From Candidatus Woesearchaeota archaeon (GTDB lineage Archaea; Nanobdellota; Nanobdellia; SCGC-AAA011-G17; JACQNH01): a stretch of 55,840 nucleotides of DNA. The stretch lies in contig JAHFIJ010000003.1 in assembly GCA_023246445.1 (NCBI GenBank), positions 1-55,840 on the forward strand. The letters are read 5' to 3'. Below the pieces are notes generated by a model. The model was not told the DNA's origin, did no database searches, and was given only the letters and a program-made list of their open reading frames with translations. Numbering within the stretch: the stretch's first letter is position 1; every line of letters begins with the position of its first letter. The position numbers and the translations under genes are program-made. Of this stretch, positions 14,982 through 45,535 are shown one piece after another.

Positions 14982-15078
14982 AGATAAATCTTTATAAAGT
15001 AAATATATAAATATTACTGTTTGATTTTAGATATAGTATAACCCTCTGTTATATGAAATTTAATTTTCAAATCCTAGA

Positions 15079-15555
15079 ATGATAAGTAATATAAAGAACT
15101 CCGCCTTAAACAATAATATGAATGACGAACGCTTCATGAAATTAGCAATTGAACAAGCTAAAAACGCACCTTTTCCGTTTGGTTGTGTTTTAGTTAAAGA
15201 CAAGCAGATTATTTCTAGTGGAAAATCAGGTAAAACCAATAATTTTGACCCCACAGCTCATGCAGAAATTAATGCGATAAGAGATGCGTGTAAATCACTA
15301 CATTCCAAAGATTTAAATGGGGTTACTTTATATTCTACTTGTGAGCCTTGCCCTATGTGTTTTTCTGCTTCATGGTGGGCAAATATTAGTAGAATCGTCT
15401 TTGGAATTTCATTAAAAGAATCTTCAAAATTATTTGGTAAAGAAATGCTTGTTAGCACTAAATATCTTAATAGAAAAGGTGCTAATAAAATTGAAATAAA
15501 AGGCGGGGTTCTAAAAGAGGAAATCTTTAAACTATATGACAGATTTGAAAATTAA
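15079..15555 (+). CDS. Nucleoside deaminase (guanine deaminase/TadA-like); likely start at 15118
   Basis: PFGCV, DPTAHAE, CEPCPMC zinc motifs. Confidence 0.9.
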   Translation: MISNIKNSALNNNMNDERFMKLAIEQAKNAPFPFGCVLVKDKQIISSGKSGKTNNFDPTAHAEINAIRDACKSLHSKDLNGVTLYSTCEPCPMCFSASWWANISRIVFGISLKESSKLFGKEMLVSTKYLNRKGANKIEIKGGVLKEEIFKLYDRFEN

Positions 15556-15618
15556 ATTTCTCCGCTTTTTTTCTTCTGAAAAAAATACTCGACCCAATTG
15601 CATTCTCACTTCGTTCGG

Positions 15619-15712
15619 GTCGCTTAACACGTGATTTAGCGGTTCCGTCCTTGCAGTCCTTCAACCCAAATTTCCTTTATTGAAACTTCGTTAAATCCTA
15701 AAGTTAGGCGAC
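15619..15712 (+). mobile_element. Integron attC-like recombination site
   Basis: R'' GCTTAAC (15622-28), 5 nt, ATTTAGC ... GTTAAAT, 6 nt, R' GTTAGGC (15703-09); ends complementary (GTCGCTTAAC/GTTAGGCGAC). Confidence 0.7.
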
Positions 15713-15852
15713 ATATTACTCGGTGGGCTCGAAAACGATTACGAATATTTTTCTTTCAGAAAAATTATGGTGTCGGCTCGAAGTCGCTTACGTGACAGAT
15801 AGCTGAAAACCTGCGGATTTTTAGATTAGTAGACCGAAAAGCTTAAATACTA

Positions 15853-15884
15853 AAGTGAATAACATTATTCATTAAGTGAATAAC
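15853..15884 (+). promoter_or_regulatory. Putative operator of HTH-MNT/HEPN operon
   Basis: AAGTGAATAAC direct repeat (21-bp period) with an inverted partial copy between, located between TATA-like CTTAAATA and the ATG. Confidence 0.55.
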
Positions 15885-15888
15885 TAAA

Positions 15889-16509
15889 ATGAGACAAAAA
15901 ACATTATTAAAGATTATAGAACTGATGAGAACTAAACTAGACAAGGGGCTAACTATACTGGAAATTTCTAAAAAACTGAAAATTGGCTACCGACCAGCAC
16001 ATATGCATATTACCAACATGGAAAAAGAAGGGATAATAAAAATTGAAAAAGTTGGAAGTGCTAAGCAATGTTCTCTCAATTTGGGAAATGCAAATACAAG
16101 ACATCTTTTAGAAGAAGTAGATATATCAAGAAAGGAAGAGCTATATCAAAAGAACCCTAAGTTAAAAATTATAGACAAACTAATCTCAAAATTAACGGAA
16201 AAGTTCATCTCTGAAATTCATTCTATTGTTTTGTTCGGAAGTTATGCCAAAGGAACAGCAACAAACCAATCGGATATTGATATCTTGTTTATAGTAGGCA
16301 ATATTGGAGATAAAAATTTAAGAGAAGAGATAGAAAGAGAGAGTGCAAGTTATCAATATTCTCATAATATAAAAATAAGCCCCCTAATCACAAATATTAT
16401 GGAATTTCAAAAAATGCTAAAGGCGAAAGAATTAAATGTTGGAAAAGAAACAAGAGAATATGGAATATCTTTGTATGGACATGAAATATTTTGGAGGATT
16501 ATGGTATGA
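15889..16509 (+). CDS. wHTH-MNT nucleotidyltransferase antitoxin
   Basis: N-terminal HTH (LTILEISKKLKIGY), LFGSYAKG...SDIDIL. Confidence 0.85.
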   Translation: MRQKTLLKIIELMRTKLDKGLTILEISKKLKIGYRPAHMHITNMEKEGIIKIEKVGSAKQCSLNLGNANTRHLLEEVDISRKEELYQKNPKLKIIDKLISKLTEKFISEIHSIVLFGSYAKGTATNQSDIDILFIVGNIGDKNLREEIERESASYQYSHNIKISPLITNIMEFQKMLKAKELNVGKETREYGISLYGHEIFWRIMV

Positions 16510-17063
16510 AAAATAGAGGTGAAGTTTTAAGGAAGAAGATTGATAGATATTTGAGAAAAGAACAGCTTTTTCAAGATGAAGAACATAAAAAACTGGAAAA
16601 AGCTTTTTTAACAAAATCAAGAAAGAACTTTACTGTTGCTAATCTCATCTTTAAAATATCTGAACAAGAAGGCATAAGAAAATTACTTTCTCTTGCTTCT
16701 GATTTTGAAATGTATGACTGGGTGATTATCGTCTCTTATTATGCAATGTATACTTCTGCTTTATCTGCATTAGCGAAACTTGGATTTAAGTCAAAAAGCC
16801 ATGCAGCAACAATAACTGTTCTTGAGCATCATTATGTAAATGGGAGTAAAGATAATGGTAAATCTTTGGAACAAAAAGATATTCATAAATTGGTAAAAGC
16901 TTATGCTATAAGTGAACAACTTATAACAAAGTTAATTCAAACCAAAACAAAAAGAGAAACTGCTCAATATGATGCAACCCCCTCAATTACGAAAGAAAAT
17001 GCAAAAACAGCTTTACATGATTCAGAAGAATTTATTACAAAGATTGAAGAGATCTTGACTTAG
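16491..17063 (+). CDS. HEPN-domain protein (likely start 16506)
   Basis: WVIIVSYYAMY, KSH, KRETAQY motifs; ATGA overlap with MNT. Confidence 0.8.
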   Translation: MEDYGMKNRGEVLRKKIDRYLRKEQLFQDEEHKKLEKAFLTKSRKNFTVANLIFKISEQEGIRKLLSLASDFEMYDWVIIVSYYAMYTSALSALAKLGFKSKSHAATITVLEHHYVNGSKDNGKSLEQKDIHKLVKAYAISEQLITKLIQTKTKRETAQYDATPSITKENAKTALHDSEEFITKIEEILT

Positions 17064-17485
17064 GTAGTGGCCTCTTTCCACAGTAACTCGAAATAATTTC
17101 TATAAGAATCTGCCACTTCCTTGCTTATGATTAAAGTAGCAATTGGAGTTTCGCTCCAAACAATAATCGCGGTTTTATCATCATAAATAAAAGTGGTTGT
17201 AGGAGAAGAAAACTCATCTTTAAAATATCTGAATTTTGTAAAAGCAATTTTTACTTGTTCTGTATTCTTTGAACTTTTAGATAAAATTACTCTTGCATCA
17301 ATCTTTAATTCTTTTTTCTGCTTTTGGAATATCTCAAAATCATGTTTCATTATCTCTAAAAATCTCCCTGATGAGCCAAAAGCAACATATTCTTTATAGT
17401 TCAGAATATCTTGGAGTATTGATTTTATACCTTTTCTGCCTCTAAATATATCAGATTCTTCCTTTTCTTTTGATTCTTTAAACAC
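17060..17485 (-). pseudogene. C-terminal fragment of TrmB-like transcriptional regulator
   Basis: FRGRKGIKSILQDIL...TFIYDDKTAII...YRNYFELLWK; N-terminal HTH missing. Confidence 0.7.
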
Positions 17486-17584
17486 AGAATTTAATTCAGG
17501 CAGAATTTCTTGCTTATTTTCATATTTTCAGTTAAGCAAGAACCTTTTCTTAATCGAGATGTTATGTCTAATTCAGAATTCGGC

Positions 17585-17935
17585 CTACTCTACTTTGGCA
17601 AATCCATTGAAATGAATTTTAGAATCTTCATGGTCAAATACTTCAACAACTTTATATTTCCCTTTTGTGAATGGCTCACCATCTAATAGAAAATGTGTTG
17701 CTTCCAAAATTATAATGCTCGCCAAGGGTTTTGAAAGTTGTTGATTCCCTTTTGTTTCTAATAATGGAATCTCTCCTTCAATCCAATAATTCCTTTGACC
17801 CTTCTTTAGAAATTCATGGATTTGCTCATTAACAAGATTTTCAGGAATACACTCTTCTTCTTTTCTATTTCCTTTTTTGAATTCTTCAATATTTCTTAAT
17901 GCCAAATCAGGATTGTATTCTGTTTGTATGCCCAT
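17585..17935 (-). CDS. Conserved hypothetical protein
   Basis: 116-aa ORF MGIQTEYNPDLALR...; TATA box about 24 nt upstream. Confidence 0.75.
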   Translation of the reverse strand: MGIQTEYNPDLALRNIEEFKKGNRKEEECIPENLVNEQIHEFLKKGQRNYWIEGEIPLLETKGNQQLSKPLASIIILEATHFLLDGEPFTKGKYKVVEVFDHEDSKIHFNGFAKVE

Positions 17936-17958
17936 AACCGAACAGAAAATCTTGTATT

Positions 17959-18038
17959 TATATAAATGTAATCCTTTTTTACTCTTAACTGATTGGGATA
18001 TAGTGATATTTGTTGATATTTTTTAATTTGTAATAACT
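17959..18038. repeat. 80-bp direct repeat copy 1 (about 91% identical to 19660-19740)
   Basis: TATATAAATGTAAT...ACTCTTAAC...TTGTTGATATTTTTTAATTTGTAAT. Confidence 0.9.
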
Positions 18039-18232
18039 CTATTTCTAATGTTATTTTAGACTCTTTAGTCGTTTCTTAGTTTTTACAATATTTTTGTAAT
18101 ATTTACGAATTTTTGTCAAAAATACGCAATTCATCTCAAGACCTAAAGGAATGAGATTTCTTGCTTAGAAGATCTTAAAGTTTACTTTACAGTGTAGAAA
18201 GGATTTTAAACTGTTTACACTAGTTAAATTTT

Positions 18233-18619
18233 ATGGAAGGGCAAATAAAATTTTTTTTGGAAAAATTGAAAGAGATGTCTGATCTTGGTAGTGTTAAATT
18301 TGTTTTTTTATTTGGTTCTTATGGGCAAGGAAAACAAAATAAACTATCTGATATTGACTTTGCTGTGTATTATGATGGCGAGGGTAAAGAGAGATTTAAA
18401 TTCAGATTGAAGCTTACTGCTAAATTACCTAACAATTATGACATACAGATATTCCAGGATTTACCTCTATTTGTAAGAAAGGAGGTTTTGAAGGGTAAAT
18501 TGATATATACAAGGGATTTAATTTTTGTGTATGATAAAGCCTATGAAACAATAAAGGAGTTTGATCATTTTAAGAAATATTATTATGATTATATAAGGCA
18601 CAGGAGATTAAGAATATGA
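18233..18619 (+). CDS. MNT antitoxin (type VII TA, MntA-like)
   Basis: FLFGSYGQG...SDIDFAV. Confidence 0.88.
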   Translation: MEGQIKFFLEKLKEMSDLGSVKFVFLFGSYGQGKQNKLSDIDFAVYYDGEGKERFKFRLKLTAKLPNNYDIQIFQDLPLFVRKEVLKGKLIYTRDLIFVYDKAYETIKEFDHFKKYYYDYIRHRRLRI

Positions 18620-19035
18620 GGAAGGAAATAATTGAAAGTAAGCTAGCTAAAATTACTGATAGTTTGAATGTTATAGTGGAAAATATGCCCGAGGAATATG
18701 AAGATTTTATTAAATTAGGGCTGATAAAAGAGGGCTTATATAAAAAAGTTGAATTTGCAATAGAAACTATTCTTGATATCTGTGCTGTAATAAATTCGGA
18801 TTTGGGCTTGGGGATGCCTGAAGTAGAAGATGATATCCTTGATAATTTAGAGAAAAAAAGAGTCTTGAAAAAAGAAGTAATTGCAAAAATAAGGGAAATG
18901 AAAGGGTTTAGAAATTTGCTTGTTCACAAATATGGTGATGTAGACGATAAAAAGGCATTTGATAATCTAAAAGAAGGCATAGAAGATTTTGATATAGCCA
19001 TGAAGGATATTGAGAATGTTCTTAAAAGATATTAA
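18616..19035 (+). CDS. HEPN/DUF86 RNase toxin (HepT-like)
   Basis: GFRNLLVHKY R-x4-H motif. Confidence 0.9.
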   Translation: MRKEIIESKLAKITDSLNVIVENMPEEYEDFIKLGLIKEGLYKKVEFAIETILDICAVINSDLGLGMPEVEDDILDNLEKKRVLKKEVIAKIREMKGFRNLLVHKYGDVDDKKAFDNLKEGIEDFDIAMKDIENVLKRY

Positions 19036-19639: not shown

Positions 19640-19659
19640 GGATAAATGAAGTTACAGGA

Positions 19660-19740
19660 TATATAAATGTAATTCCTTTTTCACTCTTAACCGATTGGAA
19701 TATAGCGATGTTTGTTGATATTTTTTAATTTGTAATTACT
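19660..19740. repeat. 80-bp direct repeat copy 2
   Basis: Matches 17959-18038; includes the last codons of the 19725..22940 gene and the MazG TATA box. Confidence 0.9.
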
Positions 19741-22700
19741 TTAATTTTCTGCATCTGATTATTGAAAATATCTGTGCATTGTATAAAATGTATTAGGTTT
19801 AAATCTACTGAGAATTGTTTTGAATTTTCAGCTATTCTAGTTGCGTTTGCGGAATTATCCTGTGCAAAGAAACAAGTTGATATTTCATTTGTGGATAAGA
19901 ATAGTTTAGTTGTTTCTTTGTAAATGCCAGTAATTAAAGGTGGTAAGGTATCTGCTTTTACTTCAAAGCTTATTATGGAAGAAGCCAAGTTATCTGCTGA
20001 ATCCCTACATTTAACAAAGAAGGTGTAGTTTCCTAAGATTAATGTTAAGGGCTGCTGTGATAATTGAGTATCTGTATTTAAAAATTCAATCATATTTTCA
20101 TAAACTGTATTCTGCTCTGAGAATCTGCAATTTGCAATACCGCTATCTGCACCCCCTTGTGTTGAAACCAATAGAGTTAAATTAGTTGCGAAAATTTCCC
20201 CTTTTGGTGTTGTGTCTGAGATTGATAAATTTTCAGTAGATATTAATGATAATTTGAAACTTTCCTGATTTGTGTTGTTTGCTAAATCCCTGCATCTGAA
20301 GAAAAAGTTATTTATTTTTTGCTTTTCTATATTTAATACAGTCTGGCATTCTGCTGATTTATAAAAAGTAAAGTTATATTCTAAAGGCAAAGCGCAGCCT
20401 AAATTATTATTTAACAGCTCAAAGTCATTATCTCTTGTATCAAATTTACAGTTTACAGGCTCTGAAACAAATAATGTTAATGGCATTGAACTGAAATCTG
20501 CATTTAGTTTTGTTCCATCTTTTAATGAAGAAGATTCAATTACTGGTGGTGTTAAGTCTGGCCCTGCCTGTGTTTCAAAATTTATTAAATATTCCCTGTT
20601 ATTCTTATTTCCTGAGGCATCCTGACATCTAATAAAAAAAGTGAAATCTTTTCCCGGCATTAGAGATAAGGTTGTATTATGCTCTTTTCTGTATATTCCG
20701 TCACCAATATTATTAGCCATTTCATCGAAGGTTTTTGTGTGAATGTCTGAAATTTTACATATAGCAAGCTCATGGGTTTTAATTCCGAATCTTATTGGTG
20801 CAAAGGGATTAATTTTGGGTGAGATTTTGAAACCAGATTCAACTGCAGCTAAAGTATAGCCTTTTGTTAAAACTTCTGAGTCTGGGGATATTAAAGGTGA
20901 GTTGGCGTCATTTGGATTAGAGTCAAAACATTTAACTTCTACTGTTCCTTCATTTACAATCTTACAATTTTGCCCTAAAGATCTGCATCTGTATTCTGAA
21001 CATTCTTTTGAAGGCTGATTGCATTTATCACAGTCTGAACCTCCTGTTGGAGCAACCCAAGGCCTGCATTCTATAATTTTCGTTGATACTAATCTATTTG
21101 TTAATAATTCTAAAATTAATTTTGTTACTGAATATGCTAAGAGAACCCAACCTACAATTTGAACTGCAAAAAGAAGATGACCTAAAAATGACTCTGCTAG
21201 TTGCGTTGCTGCTAATTCTGATGCTGCTTTCGTTCCGAGGTCTCCGAAAAGAAATGTCATGCTAGGTAAATAACCCTTTGTAAATATATGCAAAGCAATT
21301 TTAGTTACAAGTTTTTCAATCCCTAACAAAACCAAACCCGTAATTGCAGTTGCAACTGCTGATTCATCTTCCATCCAAGCCGCAAATCCAACCTGCTGTT
21401 CTGCATCTGGCGATAAAGGTTTAATATTCAAGCCTTTGGATTCTATAGAGTAATCTGTAAATGGTTGTTGAGGTAAAGTTCCTTCTGAAGATTCTGAAAA
21501 GCCTTCTGTAGTGTATTTACCAACAATATTATAATGAGCCCCGCAATCCCCTATTGAACGACAATGAGTGTTCATAGCAGTCAACCATTCATCGGTTTCA
21601 CAGATACAATTTCCCTTGCATTCCCAATCCCCAAATGGCTTTTTTTCATATAATACTTGGCAAGATGTAGATGCTGAAGAACATTCAGTGCCACCAGTAA
21701 AAGAAGAAACTTGCCTTGATTGTGTTTGGCCTAATTCCCAAAATCTAAATCCGGGCGGAACAGCGGGAATACATTTTCCATTCTCATCATCTCCTGCCCA
21801 GACACAAGTTCTTAATGAATTTTCACAGCATTTTTTATCATCCAGTATTTTTTCCTTAAAATTTGGAAAGTCTGGTTTGGCCTGATTACATGTTGTTATG
21901 CAATCAATAAAATTATTCTGCTTGCATTGTGCTTCTATATATGTTGAACCTGAGGGAAGATTAACCTCTGCATTAATACAGATTTCTTCCCTAAAATCCC
22001 TACAAGGCTCTATAATCTCTTCACCATTAACACACATATGCCTATAATGCCTTGAGCCCACTAAATCAAAACCTAATCCAGTTTTACCATCATAAGAACA
22101 CCACGATTCACCATTTTTTCTTGGAACCCCATCATTATCCATAGAAGGGGAGTCATAGGTTTTTTCGCAATTTATAGAGATACATTTAGGCTCACTATTT
22201 TTATCTGAACAAACAGTTCCTTTATTGTAATCGCAATCTTCTGCCTTGTCTTCCAAATTACCACAGGAGTCTACATAATAAACATCATCTTCAAAGCATT
22301 TTTTAGATTTTTTAGGAGTGCATTCACCACAATCATTTATAGAAGAACAAAATTTTCCAGATTCAAAATTATCTGTTACCTGACATTCATCTCTTGTAAT
22401 AAATTTGCAAGTATCCTCTGTGGAAGAAACACAGCAGCCTTTTTCCTGGGCTCTGCAGACATTAGTGCATTCTAATTCTGATGCAACTTCACGAAAATCA
22501 AATTCAAATTGATTATCCTTGAATAAAGCTTTAAAGGATTTTTTGCAATTTGCTTCTGTTCCTAGAAAACATTGAGAGCCTAGAACACAACAGCCTTGAG
22601 AACATTCATCCACTGAACAGTCTGCGGATGTTTTAAATATTTTATCCGGATCCTGACATGCTGCCTGAGGAGTATTTTTAAAACAATTAGATGAGGTTTT

Positions 22701-22940
22701 ATCTATGCAACAACCTAACTGACAATAAGTGGCTTTGTCACATGTATTTTTTAAATTTTGAGATCTTACATTTAAATCGCAATTTGACTCTTCAGTATAC
22801 AAACAAGTTTCTCCTGTTTTTGTTTTTTCACAGCAGGCTTGTTGAGCTGAAACCTGAGAAGAAAAATTAATAACAGAAAATATAGAGGTTAATATTATAG
22901 TGATTAGGAATAATGCTTTTGATTTAATAAGCTTAGTCAT
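19725..22940 (-). CDS. Giant Cys-rich secreted protein, paralog of 10295..14203
   Basis: Same motifs: CCEKTKTG, GESWC, GSRH, IGDCGA, CRPWVAP, GPDLTPP. Confidence 0.85.
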   Translation of the reverse strand: MTKLIKSKALFLITIILTSIFSVINFSSQVSAQQACCEKTKTGETCLYTEESNCDLNVRSQNLKNTCDKATYCQLGCCIDKTSSNCFKNTPQAACQDPDKIFKTSADCSVDECSQGCCVLGSQCFLGTEANCKKSFKALFKDNQFEFDFREVASELECTNVCRAQEKGCCVSSTEDTCKFITRDECQVTDNFESGKFCSSINDCGECTPKKSKKCFEDDVYYVDSCGNLEDKAEDCDYNKGTVCSDKNSEPKCISINCEKTYDSPSMDNDGVPRKNGESWCSYDGKTGLGFDLVGSRHYRHMCVNGEEIIEPCRDFREEICINAEVNLPSGSTYIEAQCKQNNFIDCITTCNQAKPDFPNFKEKILDDKKCCENSLRTCVWAGDDENGKCIPAVPPGFRFWELGQTQSRQVSSFTGGTECSSASTSCQVLYEKKPFGDWECKGNCICETDEWLTAMNTHCRSIGDCGAHYNIVGKYTTEGFSESSEGTLPQQPFTDYSIESKGLNIKPLSPDAEQQVGFAAWMEDESAVATAITGLVLLGIEKLVTKIALHIFTKGYLPSMTFLFGDLGTKAASELAATQLAESFLGHLLFAVQIVGWVLLAYSVTKLILELLTNRLVSTKIIECRPWVAPTGGSDCDKCNQPSKECSEYRCRSLGQNCKIVNEGTVEVKCFDSNPNDANSPLISPDSEVLTKGYTLAAVESGFKISPKINPFAPIRFGIKTHELAICKISDIHTKTFDEMANNIGDGIYRKEHNTTLSLMPGKDFTFFIRCQDASGNKNNREYLINFETQAGPDLTPPVIESSSLKDGTKLNADFSSMPLTLFVSEPVNCKFDTRDNDFELLNNNLGCALPLEYNFTFYKSAECQTVLNIEKQKINNFFFRCRDLANNTNQESFKLSLISTENLSISDTTPKGEIFATNLTLLVSTQGGADSGIANCRFSEQNTVYENMIEFLNTDTQLSQQPLTLILGNYTFFVKCRDSADNLASSIISFEVKADTLPPLITGIYKETTKLFLSTNEISTCFFAQDNSANATRIAENSKQFSVDLNLIHFIQCTDIFNNQMQKIKVITN

Positions 22941-25289: not shown

Positions 25290-25448
25290 AAATATTATTA
25301 AGAAATTCGATTTTTAAATTTAATGAATTAGTCATTGTGCACTAGTCCAATAGATATGGTGGTTTTTTATTCTTATTTTTTAATCCTTTAAAACAATTTA
25401 TGAAATGCAAAATATACCTAAACAGGTCTTTTCTCATCTAATTATTGA

Positions 25449-25560
25449 ATATAACATCGGAATTTAACGAAGTCGTGAGCGTAACGAGTATATATATGCG
25501 AAGCACGGGGGGGTTCGTCGTTCTATCGTTTGAGCGAAGCGATACATCAAGAACAGTATA
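25449..25560 (-). mobile_element. attC-like element (3' half) downstream of 25633..26163
   Basis: Minus strand GTATCGCTTCGCTC...CGATAGAACG...CTTCGTTAAAT-TCCGAT-GTTATAT; CTTCGTTAAAT identical to 15686-15696. Confidence 0.55.
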
Positions 25561-25632
25561 ACACAAATTCTATTAAAACGTTCCTAAATCAAATAGATTA
25601 GCCATAATAATAGAATAAAGAGGTCGGTGGGC

Positions 25633-26163
25633 TTACTTTATTTCGATAATTTTATCGGCGCTTCCAAATGAAATTTTGTATTTACTAGGAATGGCATTTT
25701 TTAAATCATAACTTTGCATACTCCTATTGATTAATTCATTATTGTAAGGATTTTTACTGTAAGGATTTAAGCAAGATTCCACAATTCCTTTTCTTTCATA
25801 AATTTTTGAATTCCAAGTAAAATCTCCACTCTTAAAATTAGGTTTTGGGAATCTGCAAGAACCAAAATCACAATGCATTGGCAAACCAATCATTTCACCA
25901 TTAACACAAGCCCATCCACCAAAACCATATAATTGTGTTGGAACTATTTCCCAACCAGTTGTTTCCTGTTTGAATATTTGAATTTCTTTATTACTGCATG
26001 TGCACTCTTCAAGACTAAAGTCAGACCAATGAATTTGTATTTTTTCACCTAGAGAATATACCTTTTTGTCAGTTGAAAGAGTTTGAATACCCGAAACTGA
26101 AAAGTAGATTAAACCAAATAGAATTACAAAAATGATTATAAGTATTGGGTATCGTTTTTTCAT
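25633..26163 (-). CDS. Secreted Cys-containing hypothetical protein (cassette-like)
   Basis: N-terminal TM then TDKKVYSLGEKI beta-rich domain. Confidence 0.75.
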   Translation of the reverse strand: MKKRYPILIIIFVILFGLIYFSVSGIQTLSTDKKVYSLGEKIQIHWSDFSLEECTCSNKEIQIFKQETTGWEIVPTQLYGFGGWACVNGEMIGLPMHCDFGSCRFPKPNFKSGDFTWNSKIYERKGIVESCLNPYSKNPYNNELINRSMQSYDLKNAIPSKYKISFGSADKIIEIK

Positions 26164-26267
26164 TATAATGTATTATATTATTGGGTATATTTAAATCCAC
26201 CGAAAACTTCAACGAAAGTTGAAACAATCTACGAGCCGGCCTCTTTCTATTTTTAGCCAATTTTTTT

Positions 26268-26332
26268 ATTGCGTATAGCATCGGATTCCCGTTATCCGCC
26301 CCAAGCCGAAGGCAAGGGACAGTATGACGCAT
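26268..26332 (-). mobile_element. Degenerate attC-like element between cassette-like genes
   Basis: GC-rich GCCTTCGGC hairpin then TCCGAT-GCTATAC-GCAAT, matching the TCCGAT-GTTATAT-TCAAT end at 25449. Confidence 0.45.
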
Positions 26333-26346
26333 GAGCCCAAAATACG

Positions 26347-26778
26347 TTAGAAGAATAAAAACTTTATAATTAATATTAGAATAATAAAACCAATAATATA
26401 AGGAATCATCTTAAAAAAATCTCTAAAATTTTCATCATCTTTTTTAGCATCAATCTCTGCTTGTTTTTTATATTCTTTAGATTGGAGATTAATTTTATTG
26501 TGTAAATCTTTTGAAGAGATTTTTTTATGATAGTAATCAAGAATTATTTTTTCATATTTATTTGGTATTTCATCATAATCAGAATTACACTTATCACATG
26601 TTTTGAAAACTCGTTCTGATGCCCAAAAATAATTTATTGGAATGAAATACAAAGTGTTATATCTTTTGCCAATAATAATTCTATGTTTAAGTTTATGTTT
26701 TTCACATGAACTTTCAAGCTCAGGAATATCAATATTTAATTCCGCTATTGGTTTTATTTTCCATCCAAATATAATCAT
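26347..26778 (-). CDS. Zinc-ribbon membrane protein (cassette-like)
   Basis: MIIFGW...TLYFIP...CDKC; C-terminal TM; flanked by 13-bp inverted repeats. Confidence 0.75.
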   Translation of the reverse strand: MIIFGWKIKPIAELNIDIPELESSCEKHKLKHRIIIGKRYNTLYFIPINYFWASERVFKTCDKCNSDYDEIPNKYEKIILDYYHKKISSKDLHNKINLQSKEYKKQAEIDAKKDDENFRDFFKMIPYIIGFIILILIIKFLFF

Positions 26779-27024
26779 AACTAGAATAGATTAATTGATT
26801 TATATAAAGTTTTAGTATTTTGGGCTCCGAGTAATATTGCAATTAACATCTGGCTTAAACAACCCCAATGGCTCGAATGGAATGAAGTGACCTCGAGAGT
26901 TTTTTACGAAGTAAAAAATTTCGTTGAACATAATAGACAGTATTCACAAGACATACGATTGTGCTCTTAAAGCATGGAATAAACTTAGGAAAAAGTTTCT
27001 TGAGCATTACAAGTCCATGAATAT

Positions 27025-27771
27025 TTAGTCATTTGGAACTCTTGGGGCCATGATAAAACTTAACTCTAATTTATCTTTTATTTTGTAGCTTAATTTTATT
27101 GGATAGTCTTGGCCAAATTCCAAAGATACAATCTCTGAAAATTTAGAAGCTTTCATGAATTTTTTTAAATATTCTACACCATATCTTGATTTTACACTAT
27201 CCCCTGTTAAATTAATAATCATGCTATCACTATTAGGGATCTCTACTTTTGCAGAATTAACTGATGATTCAGCCTCTAAGATTAATTTATCTTTATGGAC
27301 TATTAAAGCGACAGCATCTGAGATAATTGATATATCTTCTACTGCATCATTTAAGTTTAAAGCGGGCATTTCTATTTTTAATGGAAAATTTAAGTCAGGA
27401 ATCTTTTTTTCCTCTTCTTCTAATTCCAGCAAAGAGATATGAAATGTTCTTGTTGTGTCTCCTTTCAATTGTATTTTTAGACTGTTTTTTTCTTTATCTA
27501 ATTCTATTTTAATTGTATCTGAAGTTTTTGCCCTGTTTAAGACTGATTTTAGGCTATCCAGGGACAGAGATAACTCCAGATGCTCTGGAACTTCATATTC
27601 AACAAAGGCAGATGATAAAAGCTTAAAATTAACCAAAGAAATTTTAGCAGGATCTAAGGCAATTAATTCAATCTTATCGCTATCAAATTTGAATTTTACT
27701 TCATTAACTATATCTGAGATTATAGATACGGGCTCTTTTAAAAATCTTGGCTCTGATAGTAGTAGATTCAT
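27025..27771 (-). CDS. pcn: DNA polymerase sliding clamp PCNA
   Basis: ALDPAKISLV, SRYGVEYL, GQDYPI, FIMAPR; 248 aa. Confidence 0.95.
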   Translation of the reverse strand: MNLLLSEPRFLKEPVSIISDIVNEVKFKFDSDKIELIALDPAKISLVNFKLLSSAFVEYEVPEHLELSLSLDSLKSVLNRAKTSDTIKIELDKEKNSLKIQLKGDTTRTFHISLLELEEEEKKIPDLNFPLKIEMPALNLNDAVEDISIISDAVALIVHKDKLILEAESSVNSAKVEIPNSDSMIINLTGDSVKSRYGVEYLKKFMKASKFSEIVSLEFGQDYPIKLSYKIKDKLELSFIMAPRVPND

Positions 27772-28364: not shown

Positions 28365-29537
28365 ATGGTAAAACAGGAAAGTGTTTATTATATAACTTCT
28401 GAGAGCGTTACTGAAGGGCATCCGGATAAAATTTGCGACCAGATCAGTGATGCAATTTTAGACAATTTAATTTCACAAGACCCATATTCCAGAGTTGCAA
28501 TTGAGTGCTTAACAACTACCGGAACAGTTCATGTGGCTGGAGAAGTTACAACTAAAGGGTATGTGAATGTTCAGAAAATTGTTAGGGAAACATTAAGAGA
28601 GATAGGATATACAAATCCATTATTTGGAATTGATGCTGATGATGCAGGAGTCTGGGTTAGTATTCACGGACAAAGTCCGGATATTGCTCTTGGAGTTGAT
28701 GAAAATCCTGATGCAAATAAGGATCAGGGTGCTGGAGATCAGGGGATGATGTATGGCTTTGCCTGCAATGAAACTCCTGAATTAATGCCATTTCCTATTA
28801 TTACAGCACATAGATTAACCAGAAGAATGGCTGAAGTAAGAAAAAAAGGAATTATTAATGAATTAGGTCCTGATGGAAAGTCACAGGTTTCGGTCAGATA
28901 TAAAAATGGAAGGCCTGAGAAGATAATTGCGGTTGTAATCGCACAGCAACATACAAATAATATTGATGAAAAAGAATTAAGAGAAAAAATTATTAAAAAT
29001 GTAGTAGAGCCAATATGCAGGGATATGATCGATGATGAAACCAAGATTTACGTGAATGCTACAGGGAGATTTGTTATTGGTGGGCCTGAAGGAGACACAG
29101 GCGTAACAGGAAGAAAAATAATAGTTGATACTTATGGTGGTGTTGGAAGGCATGGTGGCGGCTGTTTTAGCGGGAAGGACCCAAGTAAGGTTGACAGATC
29201 AGGTGCATATATGTCAAGGCATATTGCAAAAAATATAGTTGCAGCCGGATTATCAGATAAATGTGAGGTGCAAGTAAGCTACTCTATTGGGATTGCTAAG
29301 CCTACTTCATTAAATATAGACACATTTGGAACTGGAAAGATTTCAGATGAAAAAATAAAGGAATTAGTGGAAAAACATTTTGATTTGAGACCAAAAGCAA
29401 TTATCACATATTTAAATTTAAGAAGACCAATATTCAAGAAAACTGCAGCTTACGGACATTTTGGCAGGAGTGAAGAAGAGTTTACATGGGAACATACTAA
29501 TAAAGCTGAGATTTTAAAAAAAGAATCCGGAATCTGA
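28365..29537 (+). CDS. metK: S-adenosylmethionine synthetase, bacterial/eukaryotic type
   Basis: [41 protein letters not shown]. Confidence 0.97.
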
Positions 29538-39200: not shown

Positions 39201-39440
39201 TTAATGAATTTCTACAAGCTCATTATCCATGATTTTTACAGCATACATTTTTGGGTTTATTTCTCCATTGGATTGAACTTTTATTAGCCCATTTAGAGTA
39301 TCTATTGTTCCAATATTCTTTATGTTTTCTGCAATTTCTTCTCCCGGTAATTTTTTTCCTTCTGTAGCTCTTCCAATCAGTTTTATTATATCATAGCCAA
39401 ATGAAGCTGCAAATAAGGGATCGCTATTGAAAACTTCTTG
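39201..39440 (-). pseudogene. C-terminal fragment of LivK-like ABC substrate-binding protein
   Basis: Start-less open frame QEVFNSDPLFAASFGYDIIKLI...TLNGLIKVQSNGE...ELVEIH*. Confidence 0.65.
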
Positions 39441-39610
39441 TTAATTGCAATAAATTTGAAGTCCTAAATAACAAAACAGGGATTTGGTTTAGCATTGTAT
39501 TTCATGAACTATATATCTGTCTCCTTGCTCACCAGTTACGTCTCGACCGACCATTCTTTTATCATTGAGAGAATAAATAAATCTGTTTCATTAGAAAAGT
39601 TTATAATAAG

Positions 39611-41369: not shown

Positions 41370-41384
41370 AATGTTTTCTCGCCT

Positions 41385-41433
41385 TGATTCTTGTCATCTA
41401 TTGCTCACTATGTTCGCCCGATAGAACGCCACT
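41385..41433 (+). repeat. Truncated copy of the cassette-downstream element
   Basis: TTCTTG...CTCACTATGTTCG..CGATAGAACG, shared with 15605-15616 and 25516-25550 (minus). Confidence 0.45.
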
Positions 41434-41467
41434 AAAAATTACTCTGTGATTTATTGGGATAAAGTTC

Positions 41468-41758: not shown

Positions 41759-41769
41759 AAATCTTTAAA

Positions 41770-41809
41770 TATTATCATAATGGTGATATTTATTATCATA
41801 ATGGTGATA
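41770..41809 (+). promoter_or_regulatory. Tandem palindromic operator of MNT-HEPN operon
   Basis: Perfect 19-bp repeat TATTATCATAATGGTGATA x2 (21-bp period) right after TTTAAATA. Confidence 0.65.
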
Positions 41810-41819
41810 ATTTAATAAA

Positions 41820-42326
41820 ATGGGACTATTAAGAGTGCTAAAGGAAAACTTGAATGTAAGAAGAATATTTGGGAAGAGAGAACTAGTTATAATCCAAAAG
41901 CAGTTATTTGGAGTAAATTTAAAAGATTCGGAGCGCACAAGGCTTTCTAGGGACATAAGAAAGAAGTTTGAGGTTATAGAAGCACTTTTACTATTTAAGG
42001 AAGAGTTTAAGTTGAAAAAAGGTGCTGAAATTAATAGAATGATAAAAGAAGCCAAAGAGGTTATTTTTGAAAGTAGATTTTTTCCCCGTATTAAAAAAAT
42101 TTTGTTATTTGGTTCAGCTGTAGAGAATAAACTAGCATTAACTTCAGATATCGATATAGCAGTTGAATTTGACAGAATTTCTAGCGAAGAAGCTACAAAA
42201 TTTAGAAAGGAAGTTTTAGGGAAATTAAATGAAAAATTAGACATACAGGTTTATAATTCACTTCCTGACAAAATAAAAGAGGAAATCCGGGAAAAAAATG
42301 GAATATTATATGAAAGGAAGAATTAA
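41820..42326 (+). CDS. MNT antitoxin with N-terminal extension
   Basis: LLFGSAVE...SDIDIAV. Confidence 0.85.
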   Translation: MGLLRVLKENLNVRRIFGKRELVIIQKQLFGVNLKDSERTRLSRDIRKKFEVIEALLLFKEEFKLKKGAEINRMIKEAKEVIFESRFFPRIKKILLFGSAVENKLALTSDIDIAVEFDRISSEEATKFRKEVLGKLNEKLDIQVYNSLPDKIKEEIREKNGILYERKN

Positions 42327-42723
42327 AGACAAGATTGAAGAGATTGAAAATTACTTAAACGAACTTTCAAAGATAAAACCTGAAAATTTTGAATTATATA
42401 AAAAAGATTTTAAGACTAAAACTGCATGTGAAAGATATATTGAGAAAATTATTGAGGCTGTAGTTGATTTAGCTTTTCTGGTTATTAAAGATAAAGGCTT
42501 GGAACTGCCCGAAGATGATAACAAGGCATTTGAAACATTGGCTAAGGCAGATATAATTGATGAAATTTCAGTCAAAAAATTAATAGAAGCGAAGGGGATG
42601 AGGAATATAGTGGCACATCAGTATGGTCAAGTTGATGATAAAATAATATTTAATGCAGTTACAAAGGAAATTGAAGCCGATGTTAATGAGTTTATTATAC
42701 AGATAAAGAAGATTAATCCATGA
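42298..42723 (+). CDS. HEPN/DUF86 RNase toxin
   Basis: GMRNIVAHQY R-x4-H. Confidence 0.9.
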   Translation: MEYYMKGRIKDKIEEIENYLNELSKIKPENFELYKKDFKTKTACERYIEKIIEAVVDLAFLVIKDKGLELPEDDNKAFETLAKADIIDEISVKKLIEAKGMRNIVAHQYGQVDDKIIFNAVTKEIEADVNEFIIQIKKINP

Positions 42724-42766
42724 TTCAAAAGATTTATATACATAATATTATGTATCAATATACATA

Positions 42767-43342
42767 ATGGAAACAGAGAACAAGATAATTAAGTTATTTA
42801 TTGAAGAAAAAAATCCAAAGACAATTAGGGAAATCTCAAAGAAAATTAAATCAGATTACAGGATAACCCATATTGCAACCCAGAGATTAATAGGTAGGGG
42901 GATTCTTCTCTACAAGAGAGTTGGCAAAAGTAGTTTATGCGAGTTGAATAATTTATATTACGGTCTTGAAATCTACGAAGCCGAAAGTAAAAGAAAAGAG
43001 AATCTGCTGAAAAATAAAGATTTTAAGCAATTATATAATGAGATCATGAGCAAGGTAAAATCAAGTTTATTTGTTTTTATTATTTTTGGTTCATGGGCTA
43101 AAGGCAAACCAACAATATCTTCGGATATTGATATTATATTTATCTCAAATGAACAGGGATTTGAAGAACGAATTTCAAACATTCTTTCTTTATTACCAAT
43201 AAAAACTCATACTTTGGTATTTTCAGAAGAAGAATTTATAAGAATGAAAGATTCTAAAAAATCAAATGTAGTCAAAGAAGCTATTGAAAATAATGTTATA
43301 TTATATGGAGTGGAAACTTATTATAGGTTGAAAAATGCTTAG
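42767..43342 (+). CDS. wHTH-MNT nucleotidyltransferase
   Basis: TIREISKKI HTH; IFGSWAKG...SDIDII; upstream palindrome ATACATAATATTATGTAT. Confidence 0.85.
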   Translation: METENKIIKLFIEEKNPKTIREISKKIKSDYRITHIATQRLIGRGILLYKRVGKSSLCELNNLYYGLEIYEAESKRKENLLKNKDFKQLYNEIMSKVKSSLFVFIIFGSWAKGKPTISSDIDIIFISNEQGFEERISNILSLLPIKTHTLVFSEEEFIRMKDSKKSNVVKEAIENNVILYGVETYYRLKNA

Positions 43343-43871
43343 TGATAAAAGGATAAAGGAAGCCGAATCAAATGTAAAGCGATATTTAGCTGAAGGTTTG
43401 TTAAAGAAACAAACAACCGAAACTGCTAAAGAGATGTATATTGAAAATAGTGATGTATCATTAGAAACAGCTCAGAAATTAGTATCTCTGGAAACTCAAA
43501 CTTACCAACCTTTTCTTTGAATAATTGTTTCTTCTTATTATGCCATGTATTACATTGCAAATGCAGTCTTACTTAAAATTGGTTATAAAGTGGGGGATAA
43601 AATAAGCCACAAAGTAACAGCAGATGCACTAATTGTCTTTGCAAGAGACAAACTTAAGAAAGAGCTTATTGAAAAATATGAAGATGTTAAGCAAGATGCG
43701 CTGGATCTTATGGCATCTAAAGCAGATTCTTTATTAGAATCTCTTGATTTTGAAAGAGAAAAACGTTCAAAATTTCAATACCAAATGGATGAAAGGGTTA
43801 AGAAATCAAAGTCTTTAACTTCATTAGAAAGAGCCAAACAATTTGTGTTTGAATTGAAAAAATTACTATAA
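43335..43871 (+). pseudogene. HEPN protein interrupted by in-frame TGA (43518-43520)
   Basis: QPFL*IIVSSYYAMYY aligns to DWVIIVSYYAMY of the 16491 paralog; both ORF pieces are in the same frame. Confidence 0.85.
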
Positions 43872-44046
43872 ATTTCTTGCTTGCTTCCACATATAAAAGC
43901 TAGCTGCATTCTGCTGTAGCATATTAACAATTTTCCAGCCATTTTTTCATCCAGCGGATTTTTTTAGCTACAATTGGCCGTAGCAAAGGAGGCGATAGCC
44001 AGATTTTCAGAACATCGAGTGCTATAATATTTATAGAAAGAGGCTT

Positions 44047-44064
44047 GGGGCTGTCCAAAAAGTC
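44047..44064 (+). mobile_element. Possible solitary IS terminal inverted repeat
   Basis: GGGGCTGTCCAAAAAGTC resembles IS5/IS1182-type ends; no partner end found. Confidence 0.3.
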
Positions 44065-44296
44065 ATTATATTTTCTGAGTAAAAGTATATACTACAGAAC
44101 AATATTATCTATATACTTGTAGCCCTTAAACAACTGGGATATACACCTCCTAAACCCTAAGAGATTCCCGAAGAAGACAAAGAGAGAGCCGATGATGAAG
44201 AAGTGTACTGGAAAAATGAGAGAGTCCGAGTAAGGGGGGAAAAATTCGTGAATAGAAGGATAATGCGGTATAGACCTAAGAAAAGAGGGCATTAAA

Positions 44297-45214
44297 ATGA
44301 TTGAAGAAAATTTTGAAAAAGGAAAAAAAGCTGAAAAGATAGTTAAACAAATGTTTAAGGAAGCAGGTTTCAAGGTTAAAAAATCAGGTTATGAGAATAC
44401 TTTCGGAGATCTTGCAGACAAAGATAATCTAATACAAGGTCCTGCTGCCAAATATATCAGGCATTATCCTGATTTTATAGTCGTAGACCCATCTAACAAT
44501 GCGTATCTAATAGAAGTAAAATATAGAAGATTTGGCGAAATAAAACAAGGAGACATGTTCAATTTCCCAGAAACACAGGTTATACTGCTAACAAAAGATT
44601 CTATGCATTGCCAATCGCTTAAGCAGATTCATAAAGGTGGCAAAAAGTTTTTATCATTAGATGCTCTAAAGCCCTTCTCAGACATCCCTCTTGGAATAAG
44701 AGAGAAATACATCAAAAAGATGAGGAGATGGTTAGGAGATGAAAATATAATCGGCCAGTTAATAGAAAATATCTCTGAAAAGATAGTTGGCAAGAACTTT
44801 AAGCAACCATATACCCCGGGTGGAATCAGATTCAAATACACCTATATCGAATCTTATAATCCTGAAGGAGATTCTTATGAGAATACAGGAGATAGAGAGA
44901 TTATAAGCAACAGACATGAAGCTGAAATCACCTCCAATGACAAAAAGCAGTGGAGTGAACATGAAACAAGCCTGCTGAAGGATTATTATAACACTGGAAT
45001 GGCGATTAATGATATTGCTGGGAATCTTGGCAGAAAAAGAGAAGCAGTAATATTCAGATTAGCTAGGCTGGGTCTAATAAACATGAGGCAAGCCGTGGGA
45101 TTGGTAAGAGGAAGAAACCAAGGCCATCATCATGGTAGACTAGGTAGAGGAAACAGGAGAGCACAAAGAAACAGATGGAAACAAAGACAGAGACATAAAA
45201 AGAGAAGGCGATGA
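44297..45214 (+). CDS. PD-(D/E)XK nuclease-like protein with HTH and Arg-rich tail
   Basis: GKKAE, PDFIV...IEVKY; WSEHE...IAGNLGRK...RL. Confidence 0.75.
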   Translation: MIEENFEKGKKAEKIVKQMFKEAGFKVKKSGYENTFGDLADKDNLIQGPAAKYIRHYPDFIVVDPSNNAYLIEVKYRRFGEIKQGDMFNFPETQVILLTKDSMHCQSLKQIHKGGKKFLSLDALKPFSDIPLGIREKYIKKMRRWLGDENIIGQLIENISEKIVGKNFKQPYTPGGIRFKYTYIESYNPEGDSYENTGDREIISNRHEAEITSNDKKQWSEHETSLLKDYYNTGMAINDIAGNLGRKREAVIFRLARLGLINMRQAVGLVRGRNQGHHHGRLGRGNRRAQRNRWKQRQRHKKRRR

Positions 45215-45420
45215 CTAAGTTAATTGATAACCTTAAAATGCGATGGAATAAATTAAAATTATTTCATAAGATATTATCTATTTGTTTTCTTTCTTCTATT
45301 TTTATTATTTTAATTCTGATCTCTTTCAACATATTAAAACCAGTATATGTTTTATGGATTCTATTCTCGATATTTATTATAGTATTAATGATATGGGGTA
45401 AAAAGGGGCTAAGGTTTTGA
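45211..45420 (+). CDS. Small 2-TM protein
   Basis: 69 aa; ATGA overlap with upstream gene. Confidence 0.6.
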   Translation: MTKLIDNLKMRWNKLKLFHKILSICFLSSIFIILILISFNILKPVYVLWILFSIFIIVLMIWGKKGLRF

Positions 45421-45424
45421 GTGT

Positions 45425-45535
45425 GCCTCTTGACTATTGTCCTTTACGTATCGCTTCGCTTTAAAGAATAGACGACGGTGTGCCACTGCGTCATAACTTT
45501 GCGGACGTAATTTTAACAGCAGACGCCGCCCCATA
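45425..45535 (+). repeat. Copy of the cassette-downstream element
   Basis: GTATCGCTTCGCT (45448-60) identical to 25533-45 minus; ATAGACGACG; TGCGTCATA shared with the 26.3 kb element. Confidence 0.5.

What the first reader, a model, noticed from the sequence alone, without database searches (positions are those of the whole stretch)
15036..45535. Dispersed integron-like cassette system in a DPANN archaeon, with no integrase in the window
Seen: related GTT-core ends (L'-like box, about 6 nt, GTTA..., often CAAT) at 15048(+), 15703(+), 17561(+), 25455(-), 26279(-, GCT variant), 26847(-) and 39440(+). A second GC-rich element (TCTTG..CGCTTCGCT or CACTTCGTTCG..ATAGAACG) sits just downstream of accessory genes at 15605, 25516-50, 41385 and 45425, always oriented with the gene. 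Cargo is cassette-typical (deaminase, YidD, DUF4238, nuclease, small membrane proteins). Known: integrons and attC sites have been reported in archaeal MAGs. Unusual here: units are scattered, self-promoted and mostly half-sites, suggesting genome-wide cassette insertion rather than one attI array.
Basis: partly seen in the sequence, partly recalled or inferred. Interest (0 to 1): 0.8.

Follow-up and report, generated by a model that had tools for sequence, protein, structure and literature searches.

The report
Integron-like gene cassettes, Xer-type integrase
This small archaeal genome carries mobile gene cassettes bounded by folded, integron-style recombination sites, and the likely enzyme is an Xer-like recombinase encoded on another contig rather than a classical integron integrase.

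Summary
The repeats are real but uneven. Of seven "GTT-core" ends, 15703 and 25455 belong to a genome-wide structured family. 15048 is confirmed as a unit boundary by comparison. 26279 and 26847 are plausible variants. 17561 and 39440 cannot be told from chance. The "second GC-rich element" is real at 4 of 4 sites and is the 5' module of the same site.

The site reads: GC-rich hairpin, xATAAC(A), a variable core, a GA bulge, then TGTTAnnnnCAAT. The core is 3-11 nt (short form) or a ~100-nt three-way junction (long form). My covariance model finds 15 firm copies in this 0.88-Mb genome. It also finds co-oriented arrays in 9 of 40 relatives and in DPANN and CPR records.

The deaminase unit recurs in four other genomes, and homology starts exactly at the G of GTTATAT (15047-15049). 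Two congeners lack both insert regions tested.

In 12 loci a divergent Xer-like recombinase sits beside the array. It lacks the IntI-specific insert, and none of 240 genomes of the order has a canonical IntI.

Verdict: an integron-like cassette system, a new variant of a known kind. Recombination itself is inferred, not shown.

The parts
15037..15059 (+). Short-form site: TATAAC-CCTCT-GTTATATGAAAT. It is the left boundary of the deaminase unit, with the putative crossover at G15048|TT.
   Evidence: Sequence read. Homology to L211-L214 starts at 15047-15049. In alignment A3, everything right of GTTAT is near-identical and only xATAAC is shared to the left.
15079..15555 (+). Cargo ORF: cytidine/deoxycytidylate-type deaminase, 158 aa.
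   Evidence: PF00383, E 1.6e-27. Homologues at 79-84% aa identity occur in four DPANN records and one 'bacterium' MAG.
15570..15621 (+). GC-rich 5' hairpin module of the site (CGACCC...GGGTCG).
   Evidence: Sequence read. A 94-nt, 94.7% match to C11:14803-14894 begins at 15603. The same module precedes R'' in other copies.
15622..15714 (+). Long-form attC-like site. R'' is GCTTAAC (15622-15628); then an L stem, a three-way junction, and R' GTTAGGC (15703-15709).
   Evidence: R1: 74.1 bits, E 2.6e-12. The DNA fold gives a 10-bp R stem, a 4/5-nt internal loop and an L stem.
25444..25584 (-). Site downstream of ORF176. It has a GC-rich 5' module with GATAGAAC and a perfect 3' block ACTTCGTTAAATTCCGATGTTATATTCAAT. 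The inner stem is degenerate.
   Evidence: 0 mismatches to the 30-nt block. R1: 23.2 bits, E 0.08-0.44. The 5'-module profile scores 49.7 bits, but this site was a seed. The fold is no better than shuffles, z +1.45.
25633..26163 (-). Cargo ORF, 176 aa, no family.
   Evidence: no Pfam match. Absent at this locus in G001 and G002.
26268..26353 (-). Short-form site after ORF143 with the GCT variant (GGATAAC-gggaatcc-GA-TGCTATACGCAAT).
   Evidence: Sequence read. It aligns with eight short-form sites from other genomes. It was a seed of that profile, so this is not an independent test.
26347..26778 (-). Cargo ORF, 143 aa, no family.
   Evidence: Absent at this locus in G001 and G002.
26836..27024 (-). 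Degenerate site directly after the PCNA stop, ending in GATGTTAATTGCAAT (26850-26836).
   Evidence: Sequence read. A 47-nt, 87% match to C11:13046-13092. No R1 match; nhmmer E 2.2.
25337..27024 (-). 1,688-nt insert between PCNA and the resident ORF116. It is flanked by the 9-bp direct repeat AATGACTAA (27025-27033 and 25328-25336).
   Evidence: In G001:C60 and G002:C12, PCNA is followed within about 50 nt by the ORF116 homologue. Repeats read.
41379..41452 (+). GC-rich 5' module with GATAGAAC after the DUF4238 ORF. A possible R' variant GTTCTTGCAAAAT lies about 36 nt on.
   Evidence: nhmmer: 55.6 bits, but it was a seed. A 27-nt, 100% match to C12:12927-12953. The R' reading is by eye only.
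45423..45519 (+). GC-rich 5' module followed by TAACAG, after a 69-aa ORF. The site is cut off by the transposase remnant at 45514-45687.
   Evidence: (I2). The same junction stands at C12:13032.
39440..39452 (+). GTTAATTGCAATA, possibly the left junction of the 39.4-45.7 kb accessory island. Unverified.
   Evidence: The motif alone gives 13 matches with up to 1 mismatch against 6.1 expected. It resembles the C12 junction GTTATATTCAATAAATT.
17559..17572 (+). ATGTTATGTCTAAT, a claimed end. Unverified.
   Evidence: motif only. 22-25-nt matches to C39 and C28. R1 E 2.7.

Best explanation
The window holds gene cassettes of an integron-like system.

The site. Each unit is an accessory ORF followed by a recombination site. 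The site reads: a GC-rich hairpin, an R''-like box xATAAC(A), a variable core, a 2-nt GA bulge, and an R'-like box TGTTAnnnnCAAT. The core is 3-11 nt in short forms. In long forms it is an L''/L' stem enclosing two hairpins, about 100 nt in all.

Inferred mechanism. The AAC and GTT boxes pair when one DNA strand folds. A tyrosine recombinase cuts at G|TT, as at integron attC sites. This excises or inserts ORF-plus-site units, either at a platform next to the recombinase gene or at short secondary sites elsewhere.

The enzyme. The likely recombinase is not in the window. It is an Xer-like protein with intact RKHRHY-type motifs that lacks the IntI-specific insert. It is encoded divergently from an array on contig C11.

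Shown: the family, its structure and covariation, the co-oriented arrays, the recombinase adjacency, the boundary at GTT in one cassette, and presence/absence between congeners.

Inferred: strand folding, the cut site, which recombinase acts, and current activity.
For: 1. Family. The 30-nt block has 10 genome matches. R1 finds 20 matches at E<=1 in the own genome, 15 of them at E<=1.2e-4.

2. Structure. In A1 (14 own-genome copies) 73.0% of cells are paired against 58.2+-1.7 in shuffles, and 26-51% when the partner is slid. In A2 (96 copies from other genomes) the figures are 86.8% against 65.8+-0.6, and 34-56% slid. The outer AACA/TGTT helix is invariant (72-91 of 94). In the L helix 9 of 10 pairs change on both sides. 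This is the attC pattern.

3. Arrays. Hits occur in 10 of 41 genomes, G000 included. In 73 external loci with 127 hits, all 54 neighbouring pairs are co-oriented. Median spacing is 955 nt, and 52 of 54 are under 4 kb. The upstream ORF is co-oriented in 73 cases, opposite in 27 and absent in 27.

4. Recombinase. A divergent PF00589 gene lies 0.1-1.4 kb from the first element in G000:C11, G002:C7, G009:C3, G026:C5 and G033:C8. All 7 recombinase ORFs found in the 80 external loci are also divergent from their arrays. A junction ATAAT..GATGTTAnnnnnAAT recurs beside them.

5. Boundary. Homology of the deaminase unit to L211-L214 starts at window 15047-15049 and ends at 15566-15567.

6. Empty and filled sites. 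G001 and G002 lack window ~15029-18231 and 25337-27024.

7. Strand test. G-T wobbles number 57 and A-C cells 80, out of 2,246. There is no RNA-like bias towards one strand.
Against: - No recombination event was seen. Contigs of two runs show no excision joint; contigs drop rare variants, so this is not evidence either way.
- The PCNA-locus insert is bounded by a 9-bp direct repeat, and one end is an IS-like repeat terminus. That looks like transposition rather than G|TT exchange.
- The 3.2-kb deaminase island as a whole ends on its right without any GTT site.
- The MNT/HEPN module moves without such a site. In G001 it is flanked by 22-nt direct repeats.
- In four of five genomes the deaminase is followed by a short form, not by R1.
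- Single folds are barely better than shuffles, z -1.55 to +1.45 for the window copies.
- The array-adjacent recombinases do not form a well-supported clade. Four of five fall in a 9-row group with SH-aLRT 82, and the fifth lies elsewhere.
- The spacing between the R and L boxes (1-2 and 2-4 nt) differs from what I recall for classical attC.
Confidence: 0.7

Rival explanations
1. These are ordinary integron cassettes (CALINs or single attCs). A canonical IntI, encoded on an unassembled part of the genome or in a neighbouring organism, made them and moves them. The Xer-like gene next to arrays is merely the housekeeping XerA.
For: The AAC/GTT boxes, covarying stems and co-oriented arrays after ORFs fit attC. 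Archaeal CALINs, Nanoarchaeota included, are already in print, and most lack IntI (PMC9668308, Results read). The genome is 90.8% complete.
Against: TIGR02249 is over its cut-off in 0 of 240 genomes of the order. All 15 recombinases scanned against NCBIfam score best as XerA_Arch: 11 of the 12 array-adjacent ones, the genome's two others, and two duplicates of G000:C11 and G026:C5. TIGR02249 scores 123.5 bits (degenerate C11b copy) to 222.4 bits, under its cut-off of 265, always in two stretches that skip the IntI insert. The fragment L144 gave no match. The divergent orientation is seen in 12 of 12 loci. A second truncated copy of the recombinase start plus platform stands in front of cassettes on C12.
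Confidence: 0.12
2. The elements act as RNA, for example as 3'-UTR stabilisers, terminators or a small RNA that travels with accessory genes. They are not DNA recombination sites.
For: They lie downstream of co-oriented ORFs. They have a conserved structure with conserved loops (CTTGCAG, CCCAAATTT..AAACTTC).
Against: There is no Rfam match. There is no excess of G-U over A-C cells. The 3' box also stands alone at the junction beside the recombinase, where no structure precedes it. The homology edge falls at GTT. The recombinase adjacency also argues against it.
Confidence: 0.08
3. They are non-autonomous transposable elements (MITE-like or IS-end-derived) spread by a DDE transposase. The GTT motifs are terminal sequences.
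For: A 9-bp direct repeat flanks the PCNA-locus insert. An IS-like terminus (25337-25426) has at least 12 copies at contig ends in G002. A transposase remnant abuts two truncated sites.
Against: No terminal inverted repeats were found. The stems covary instead of being conserved. Co-orientation is 54 of 54. No transposase lies beside the arrays, but a tyrosine recombinase does.
Confidence: 0.07

Closest known systems
Integron gene cassettes and attC sites, including archaeal integrons and CALINs (Ghaly et al. 2022, PMC9668308; Cury et al. 2016, PMC4889954)
   Same: - ORF plus an imperfect palindromic site with conserved AAC...GTT.
- A sequence-variable but paired inner box and a variable terminal structure.
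- Co-oriented arrays with spacing under 4 kb.
- A divergent tyrosine recombinase with a junction site.
- ORFan-rich and toxin-antitoxin-rich cargo.
- Sites more alike within a lineage than between lineages.
   Different: - The adjacent recombinase lacks the IntI-specific insert.
- The site carries an extra GC-rich 5' hairpin and a conserved inner hairpin.
- Short forms have no L boxes at all.
- The 2-nt bulge lies on the 3' arm of the coding strand.
- Many copies are single and lie between core genes.
- Host genomes are under 1.2 Mb. Cury et al. found no complete integrons in very small genomes (passage seen).
Xer/dif recombination and elements that exploit it (XerA of archaea; IMEX such as CTX phage with a folded single-stranded site; pdif modules). 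Recalled, apart from the Xer subgroup text in PMC8138268.
   Same: The recombinase is closest to XerA: PDB 4a8e at 156 bits, and NF040815 at 205.6-253.8 bits for the array-adjacent ones (eight over its cut-off of 220, three under). The short-form sites look like two inverted arms around a short spacer.
   Different: The genome has a second, separate XerA-like gene on C4 that could serve dimer resolution. The sites are many, they follow ORFs, and they form arrays. The long forms require folding.
Vibrio-type chromosomal integron repeats (VCR-like homogeneous attC families). Recalled.
   Same: One lineage-wide attC type with high sequence conservation, including parts of the terminal structure.
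   Different: Here the type is spread over DPANN archaea and CPR bacteria, by record titles. One case sits inside a bacterial str operon.

Membership tests
attC site (integron cassette recombination site) | Imperfect inverted repeats R''-L''...L'-R' able to fold as a hairpin | tested here: met
   73.0% and 86.8% of cells are paired, far above the shuffled and slid controls. Folds.
attC site (integron cassette recombination site) | Conserved AAC in R'' and GTT in R', with little other sequence conservation in the boxes | tested here: met
   the outer helix A-U/A-U/C-G/A-U is invariant in 72-91 of 94 sequences, and the L helix covaries. The window copy reads GCTTAAC / GTTAGGC. An extra conserved inner hairpin is atypical.
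attC site (integron cassette recombination site) | Unpaired central spacer and extrahelical bases that set strand choice | tested here: inconclusive
   A 2-nt bulge (GA in 76 of 96) lies on the 3' arm. The window copy has a 4/5-nt internal loop. Which arm carries the bases in classical attC is recalled only; the review passages seen do not say.
attC site (integron cassette recombination site) | Detected by the IntegronFinder/HattCI attC models | not testable with these tools
   Neither program nor its model is on hand.
attC site (integron cassette recombination site) | Cassette boundaries at G|TT between genomes | tested here: met
   Met for one unit only, the deaminase. Not met for the PCNA-locus insert as a whole.
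Integron (complete) | Integron integrase: a tyrosine recombinase with the IntI-specific additional domain | tested here: not met
   TIGR02249 scores 123.5-222.4 bits against a cut-off of 265, in two stretches. 0 of 240 genomes of the order are over the cut-off. PDB 2a3v matches in two stretches.
Integron (complete) | attI-type site between the integrase gene and the first cassette, with the array divergent from the integrase gene | tested here: met
   The arrangement is divergent in 12 of 12 loci. The junction ATAAT..GATGTTA recurs. Function as attI is not tested.
CALIN (cluster of attC lacking integrase) | At least two attC sites less than 4 kb apart with no intI nearby | tested here: inconclusive
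   The window has sites at 25444-25584, 26268-26353 and 26836-27024 within 1.6 kb, but only one reaches even a weak model score. Relatives clearly meet the definition.
XerA (archaeal dimer-resolution recombinase) | NF040815 over its cut-off; one housekeeping copy acting at dif | tested here: inconclusive
   The C11 copy scores 231.1 bits and the C4 copy 227.1 bits, both over 220. Which one serves dif is unknown. The tree gives weak separation.

The most novel reading that the evidence does not exclude
A lineage of Xer-like tyrosine recombinases that never had, or has lost, the IntI-specific insert runs a true folded-site cassette system. One site type is shared by DPANN archaea and CPR bacteria. 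Units insert both at a platform and between core genes of very small genomes. This would be either an independent invention of the integron principle or a surviving intermediate between Xer/dif and integrons. It would also be a route of gene exchange between the two groups of ultra-small symbionts.
Probability: 0.4. Interest if true: 0.85.

Novelty: new variant of a known kind. Interest (0 to 1): 0.72.

Why it matters
Integrons are defined by IntI and its extra domain, which is held to be essential for recognising folded attC sites. Here attC-like sites form arrays beside a recombinase that lacks that domain. If the association is functional, it bears on how integrons arose from Xer-type recombinases, and that becomes testable with a small set of proteins and sites.

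The system also gives a concrete mechanism for accessory-gene turnover in DPANN and CPR organisms, whose genomes are under about 1 Mb. By record titles and by one str-operon context, the same site type stands in both domains.

Practically, IntI-based screens would miss the integrase of these elements.

Tried and rejected
- tRNA and Rfam scans found only tRNA-Phe at 53052-53138, and nothing at the elements.
- RNAalifold on the plain MAFFT alignment found only the inner hairpin, because the arms were out of register. I supplied the structure by hand and let the model realign.
- The search of earlier findings was not open.
- Sequencing runs: two runs of one study hold the stretch, and one may be the source. 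Laid contigs show no joint at 15048/15703 or elsewhere at the sites. Contigs break inside the repeats (15648-15715, 25450-25479). This gives no information on excision.
- I first read the 174-nt segment 45514-45687 / C12:13032-13205 as the end of a full IS. The long ORF beside it on C12 reads by eye as a tRNA-guanine transglycosylase-like core gene (no family search was run). Only a degraded transposase C-terminus remains.
- I looked for terminal inverted repeats at the PCNA-locus insert and found none (by eye).
- A hammerhead-like CTGATGAG in one relative (G026) was considered and dropped, because the rest of the core is missing.
- R1 does not follow the deaminase in its closest homologues: 3 weak or displaced hits in 13 loci. 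That result led to recognising the short-form sites.
- Literature searches for an Xer-type integrase with cassette arrays in DPANN or CPR gave no such paper among the listed titles. Supplements of PMC9668308 (lists of MAGs and attCs) could not be seen and may already include these elements as CALINs.

Full report
**What the window is.** The window is contig C27 of an 883-kb, 46-contig genome with 31% G+C, 90.8% complete. It is archaeal: PCNA, TFS, RpoL, ScpB and aRF1 lie in the region. The closest named records for one of its genes are Pacearchaeota and Woesearchaeota MAGs. Between the core genes sit accessory genes: a deaminase, MNT/HEPN and MNT/HepT pairs, MazG, DUF4238 and many ORFs without a family.

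The copies share one fold. An AAC(A) box pairs with a (T)GTT box. Inside that lies a 10-11-bp stem whose sequence differs between copies but stays complementary, for example GGAATTTAAC/GTTAAATTCC, GGGCTTATGAG/CTCATAAGCCC and GACATTTACAG/CTGTAAATGTC. Inside that are two hairpins.

On 14 copies, 73.0% of cells pair against 58.2+-1.7 in shuffles and 26-51% with slid partners. A covariance model, R1, finds 20 matches at E<=1 in the genome, 15 of them at E<=1.2e-4.

Only two matches are in the window: 15622-15714(+), which is firm, and 25444-25579(-), which is weak. The short motif by itself is barely enriched: 7 matches against 2.46 expected, with 2 of 100 shuffles as high. On that basis 17561 and 39440 remain unproven.

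It always follows a co-oriented ORF. It is the 5' part of the same site: a GC-rich hairpin followed by xATAAC.

**Evidence from other genomes.** R1 matches 9 of 40 other genomes of the same order, often as co-oriented groups of 2-4. Those 80 loci gave 121 R1 matches at E<=1e-3.

By record title the hosts are Woese-, Pace-, Nano-, Aenigm- and Nanohaloarchaeota, some Methanosarcinales and Thermoplasmata MAGs, many CPR/Patescibacteria MAGs, and a few other bacterial MAGs. Binning errors are possible for short contigs. In one CPR single-cell genome, however, two units lie between fusA and tuf of a bacterial str operon.

On 96 such copies, 86.8% of cells pair against 65.8+-0.6 shuffled and 34-56% slid. 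The outer AACA/TGTT helix never varies, and 9 of 10 pairs of the next helix change on both sides. The alignment was fitted to the model, which favours the structure.

In 73 loci with 127 hits, all 54 neighbouring pairs are co-oriented, with a median spacing of 955 nt. The ORF upstream is co-oriented in 73 cases, opposite in 27 and absent in 27. G-T wobbles (57) do not exceed A-C cells (80), so no single strand is favoured as it would be in an RNA.

**The recombinase.** The genome has three tyrosine recombinases, none in the window. One of them, C11:5308-6120, is read away from an array: ORF353, site, ORF144, site. About 95 nt of intergenic DNA ends in GATAATCTTATGTTAGTAGAAAT.

Contig C12 holds a second copy of the first 13 codons of that gene. 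The same 95 nt follows, and then cassettes.

The same divergent arrangement is seen in G002, G009, G026 and G033. It is also seen in all 7 external loci that hold a recombinase ORF.

Every recombinase scanned scores best as XerA_Arch: 11 of the 12 array-adjacent ones and the genome's two others. The fragment L144 gave no match. TIGR02249 (integron integrase) reaches 123.5 bits (the degenerate C11b copy) to 222.4 bits, against a cut-off of 265, always in two stretches that skip the IntI-specific region. The best solved relatives of the C11 protein are XerA 4a8e (156 bits) and IntI4 2a3v (139 bits, two stretches).

No genome of 240 in the order has a match over the IntI cut-off. The 14 control genomes have none either, so that control says nothing about sensitivity.

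I built a quick tree of 45 of the high-scoring recombinases. It used a subset of genomes and left out two fragments and the duplicates. It puts 4 of the 5 array-adjacent proteins of the relatives in a 9-row group with weak support (SH-aLRT 82). The fifth lies elsewhere.

**Boundaries.** The deaminase unit has homologues at 79-84% protein identity in four DPANN records. Nucleotide homology to the window begins at 15047-15049, the G of GTTATATGAAAT, and ends at 15566-15567, just past the stop codon.

In the alignment the 20 columns after GTTAT..AAT are invariant. To the left only xATAAC(A) is shared.

The upstream and downstream sites in those genomes are short forms: a GC-rich module, xATAACA, 3-11 nt, then GTTATnnnCAAT. 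The window's 15037-15059 (TATAAC-CCTCT-GTTATAT) is such a short form. So is 26268-26353(-), with GCT in place of GTT.

**Empty and filled sites.** Two genomes of the same genus, at about 75-78% nucleotide identity, lack window ~15029-18231. They also lack 25337-27024.

The left edge of the first segment lies within about 20 nt of 15048. Its right edge has no GTT site.

The second insert sits exactly after the PCNA stop codon and is flanked by a 9-bp direct repeat, AATGACTAA. Its far end (25337-25426) is the terminus of a repeat that has at least 12 copies at contig ends in G002.

So islands are built by more than one process. Transposition is probably one of them.

**How it most likely works.** The sites have the logic of attC: conserved AAC and GTT that pair on folding, a paired but variable inner box, and a variable terminal part. 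The enzyme beside the arrays is Xer-like. I infer cutting at G|TT and exchange between two sites or with the platform, as in integrons. Short forms may be products of, or targets for, such exchange.

This is an inference. No recombination product was observed.

**Comparison with what is known.** Archaeal integrons and CALINs are in print, Nanoarchaeota among them. Only six IntI genes were found in 75 MAGs, and cross-domain similarity of attC sites was reported (PMC9668308, Results read).

These elements may therefore already be counted there as CALINs. I could not see the supplements. What I did not find among the titles listed by four searches is the link to an Xer-like recombinase without the IntI insert, the short and long forms with a GC-rich 5' module, or the sharing with CPR bacteria.

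The insert is described as essential for integron function (PMC8138268, passage seen).

**Verdict.** This is a real, integron-like cassette system, and a new variant of a known kind. The window itself holds one clean unit, two or three degraded ones, and several remnants.

Noticed in passing
window 17959-18191 (also 19660-19746): A ~230-nt AT-rich repeat upstream of the MNT/HepT pair. There are 6-7 copies in G000 and many short matches in G001 and G002. It may be a promoter or leader module, or a MITE that travels with toxin-antitoxin pairs (D5, 22, 65, 71).
   Followed up: partly
window 25337-25426: Terminus (TGCACTAGTCCAATAGATATGG...) of a repeat that has at least 12 copies in G002, all at contig ends. 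A related 68-nt copy lies between a tRNA gene and a ribosomal-protein operon at G000:C26:22091-22158.
   Followed up: partly
window 45514-45687 and G000:C12:13032-13205: A 174-nt segment shared at 91% identity. On the minus strand it encodes a degraded transposase-like C-terminus (...NLASIAHNLQKIW...). In both loci it starts right at TAACAG of a truncated site.
   Followed up: partly
G001:C17:2560-3970 (L086): The MNT/HEPN module of window 15833-17062 lies in another genome. There it is flanked by 22-nt direct repeats that duplicate the 3' end of the neighbouring gene (...FIAKI.K*), as after site-specific integration into a gene end.
   Followed up: partly
G000:C11:12033-12860: A third Xer-like gene with changed catalytic motifs (RSS for RHS, GTKRY for GHS..Y). 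It lies near the 47-nt relative of window 26844-26890.
   Followed up: no
window 42714-46165: In G002 the MNT/HepT pair is 52 nt from the end of aRF1. G000 has 3.45 kb more here: an MNT, four ORFs, a truncated site and the transposase remnant.
   Followed up: partly
window 6577-6745 and 7267-7299: Three to four tandem copies of a 48-nt unit, plus one distant copy (D2 and D3).
   Followed up: no
window 10295-14203 and 19725-22940: Two very large minus-strand ORFs (1302 and 1071 aa, no Pfam for the second) share segments of 74-83% nucleotide identity, so they are paralogues (D1, D7 and D11).
   Followed up: no
window 28365-29537: The S-adenosylmethionine synthetase is of the bacterial/eukaryotic MetK type (PF00438, PF02772, PF02773) in an archaeal genome. 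Contig depth from other organisms piles up here.
   Followed up: no
G240:C3:533000-559389 (records of L213 and L214): A Woesearchaeota scaffold ends in a region of at least 26 kb. It holds two deaminase units 8 kb apart and four long-form sites in the last 4 kb, which suggests a large array at a scaffold end.
   Followed up: partly
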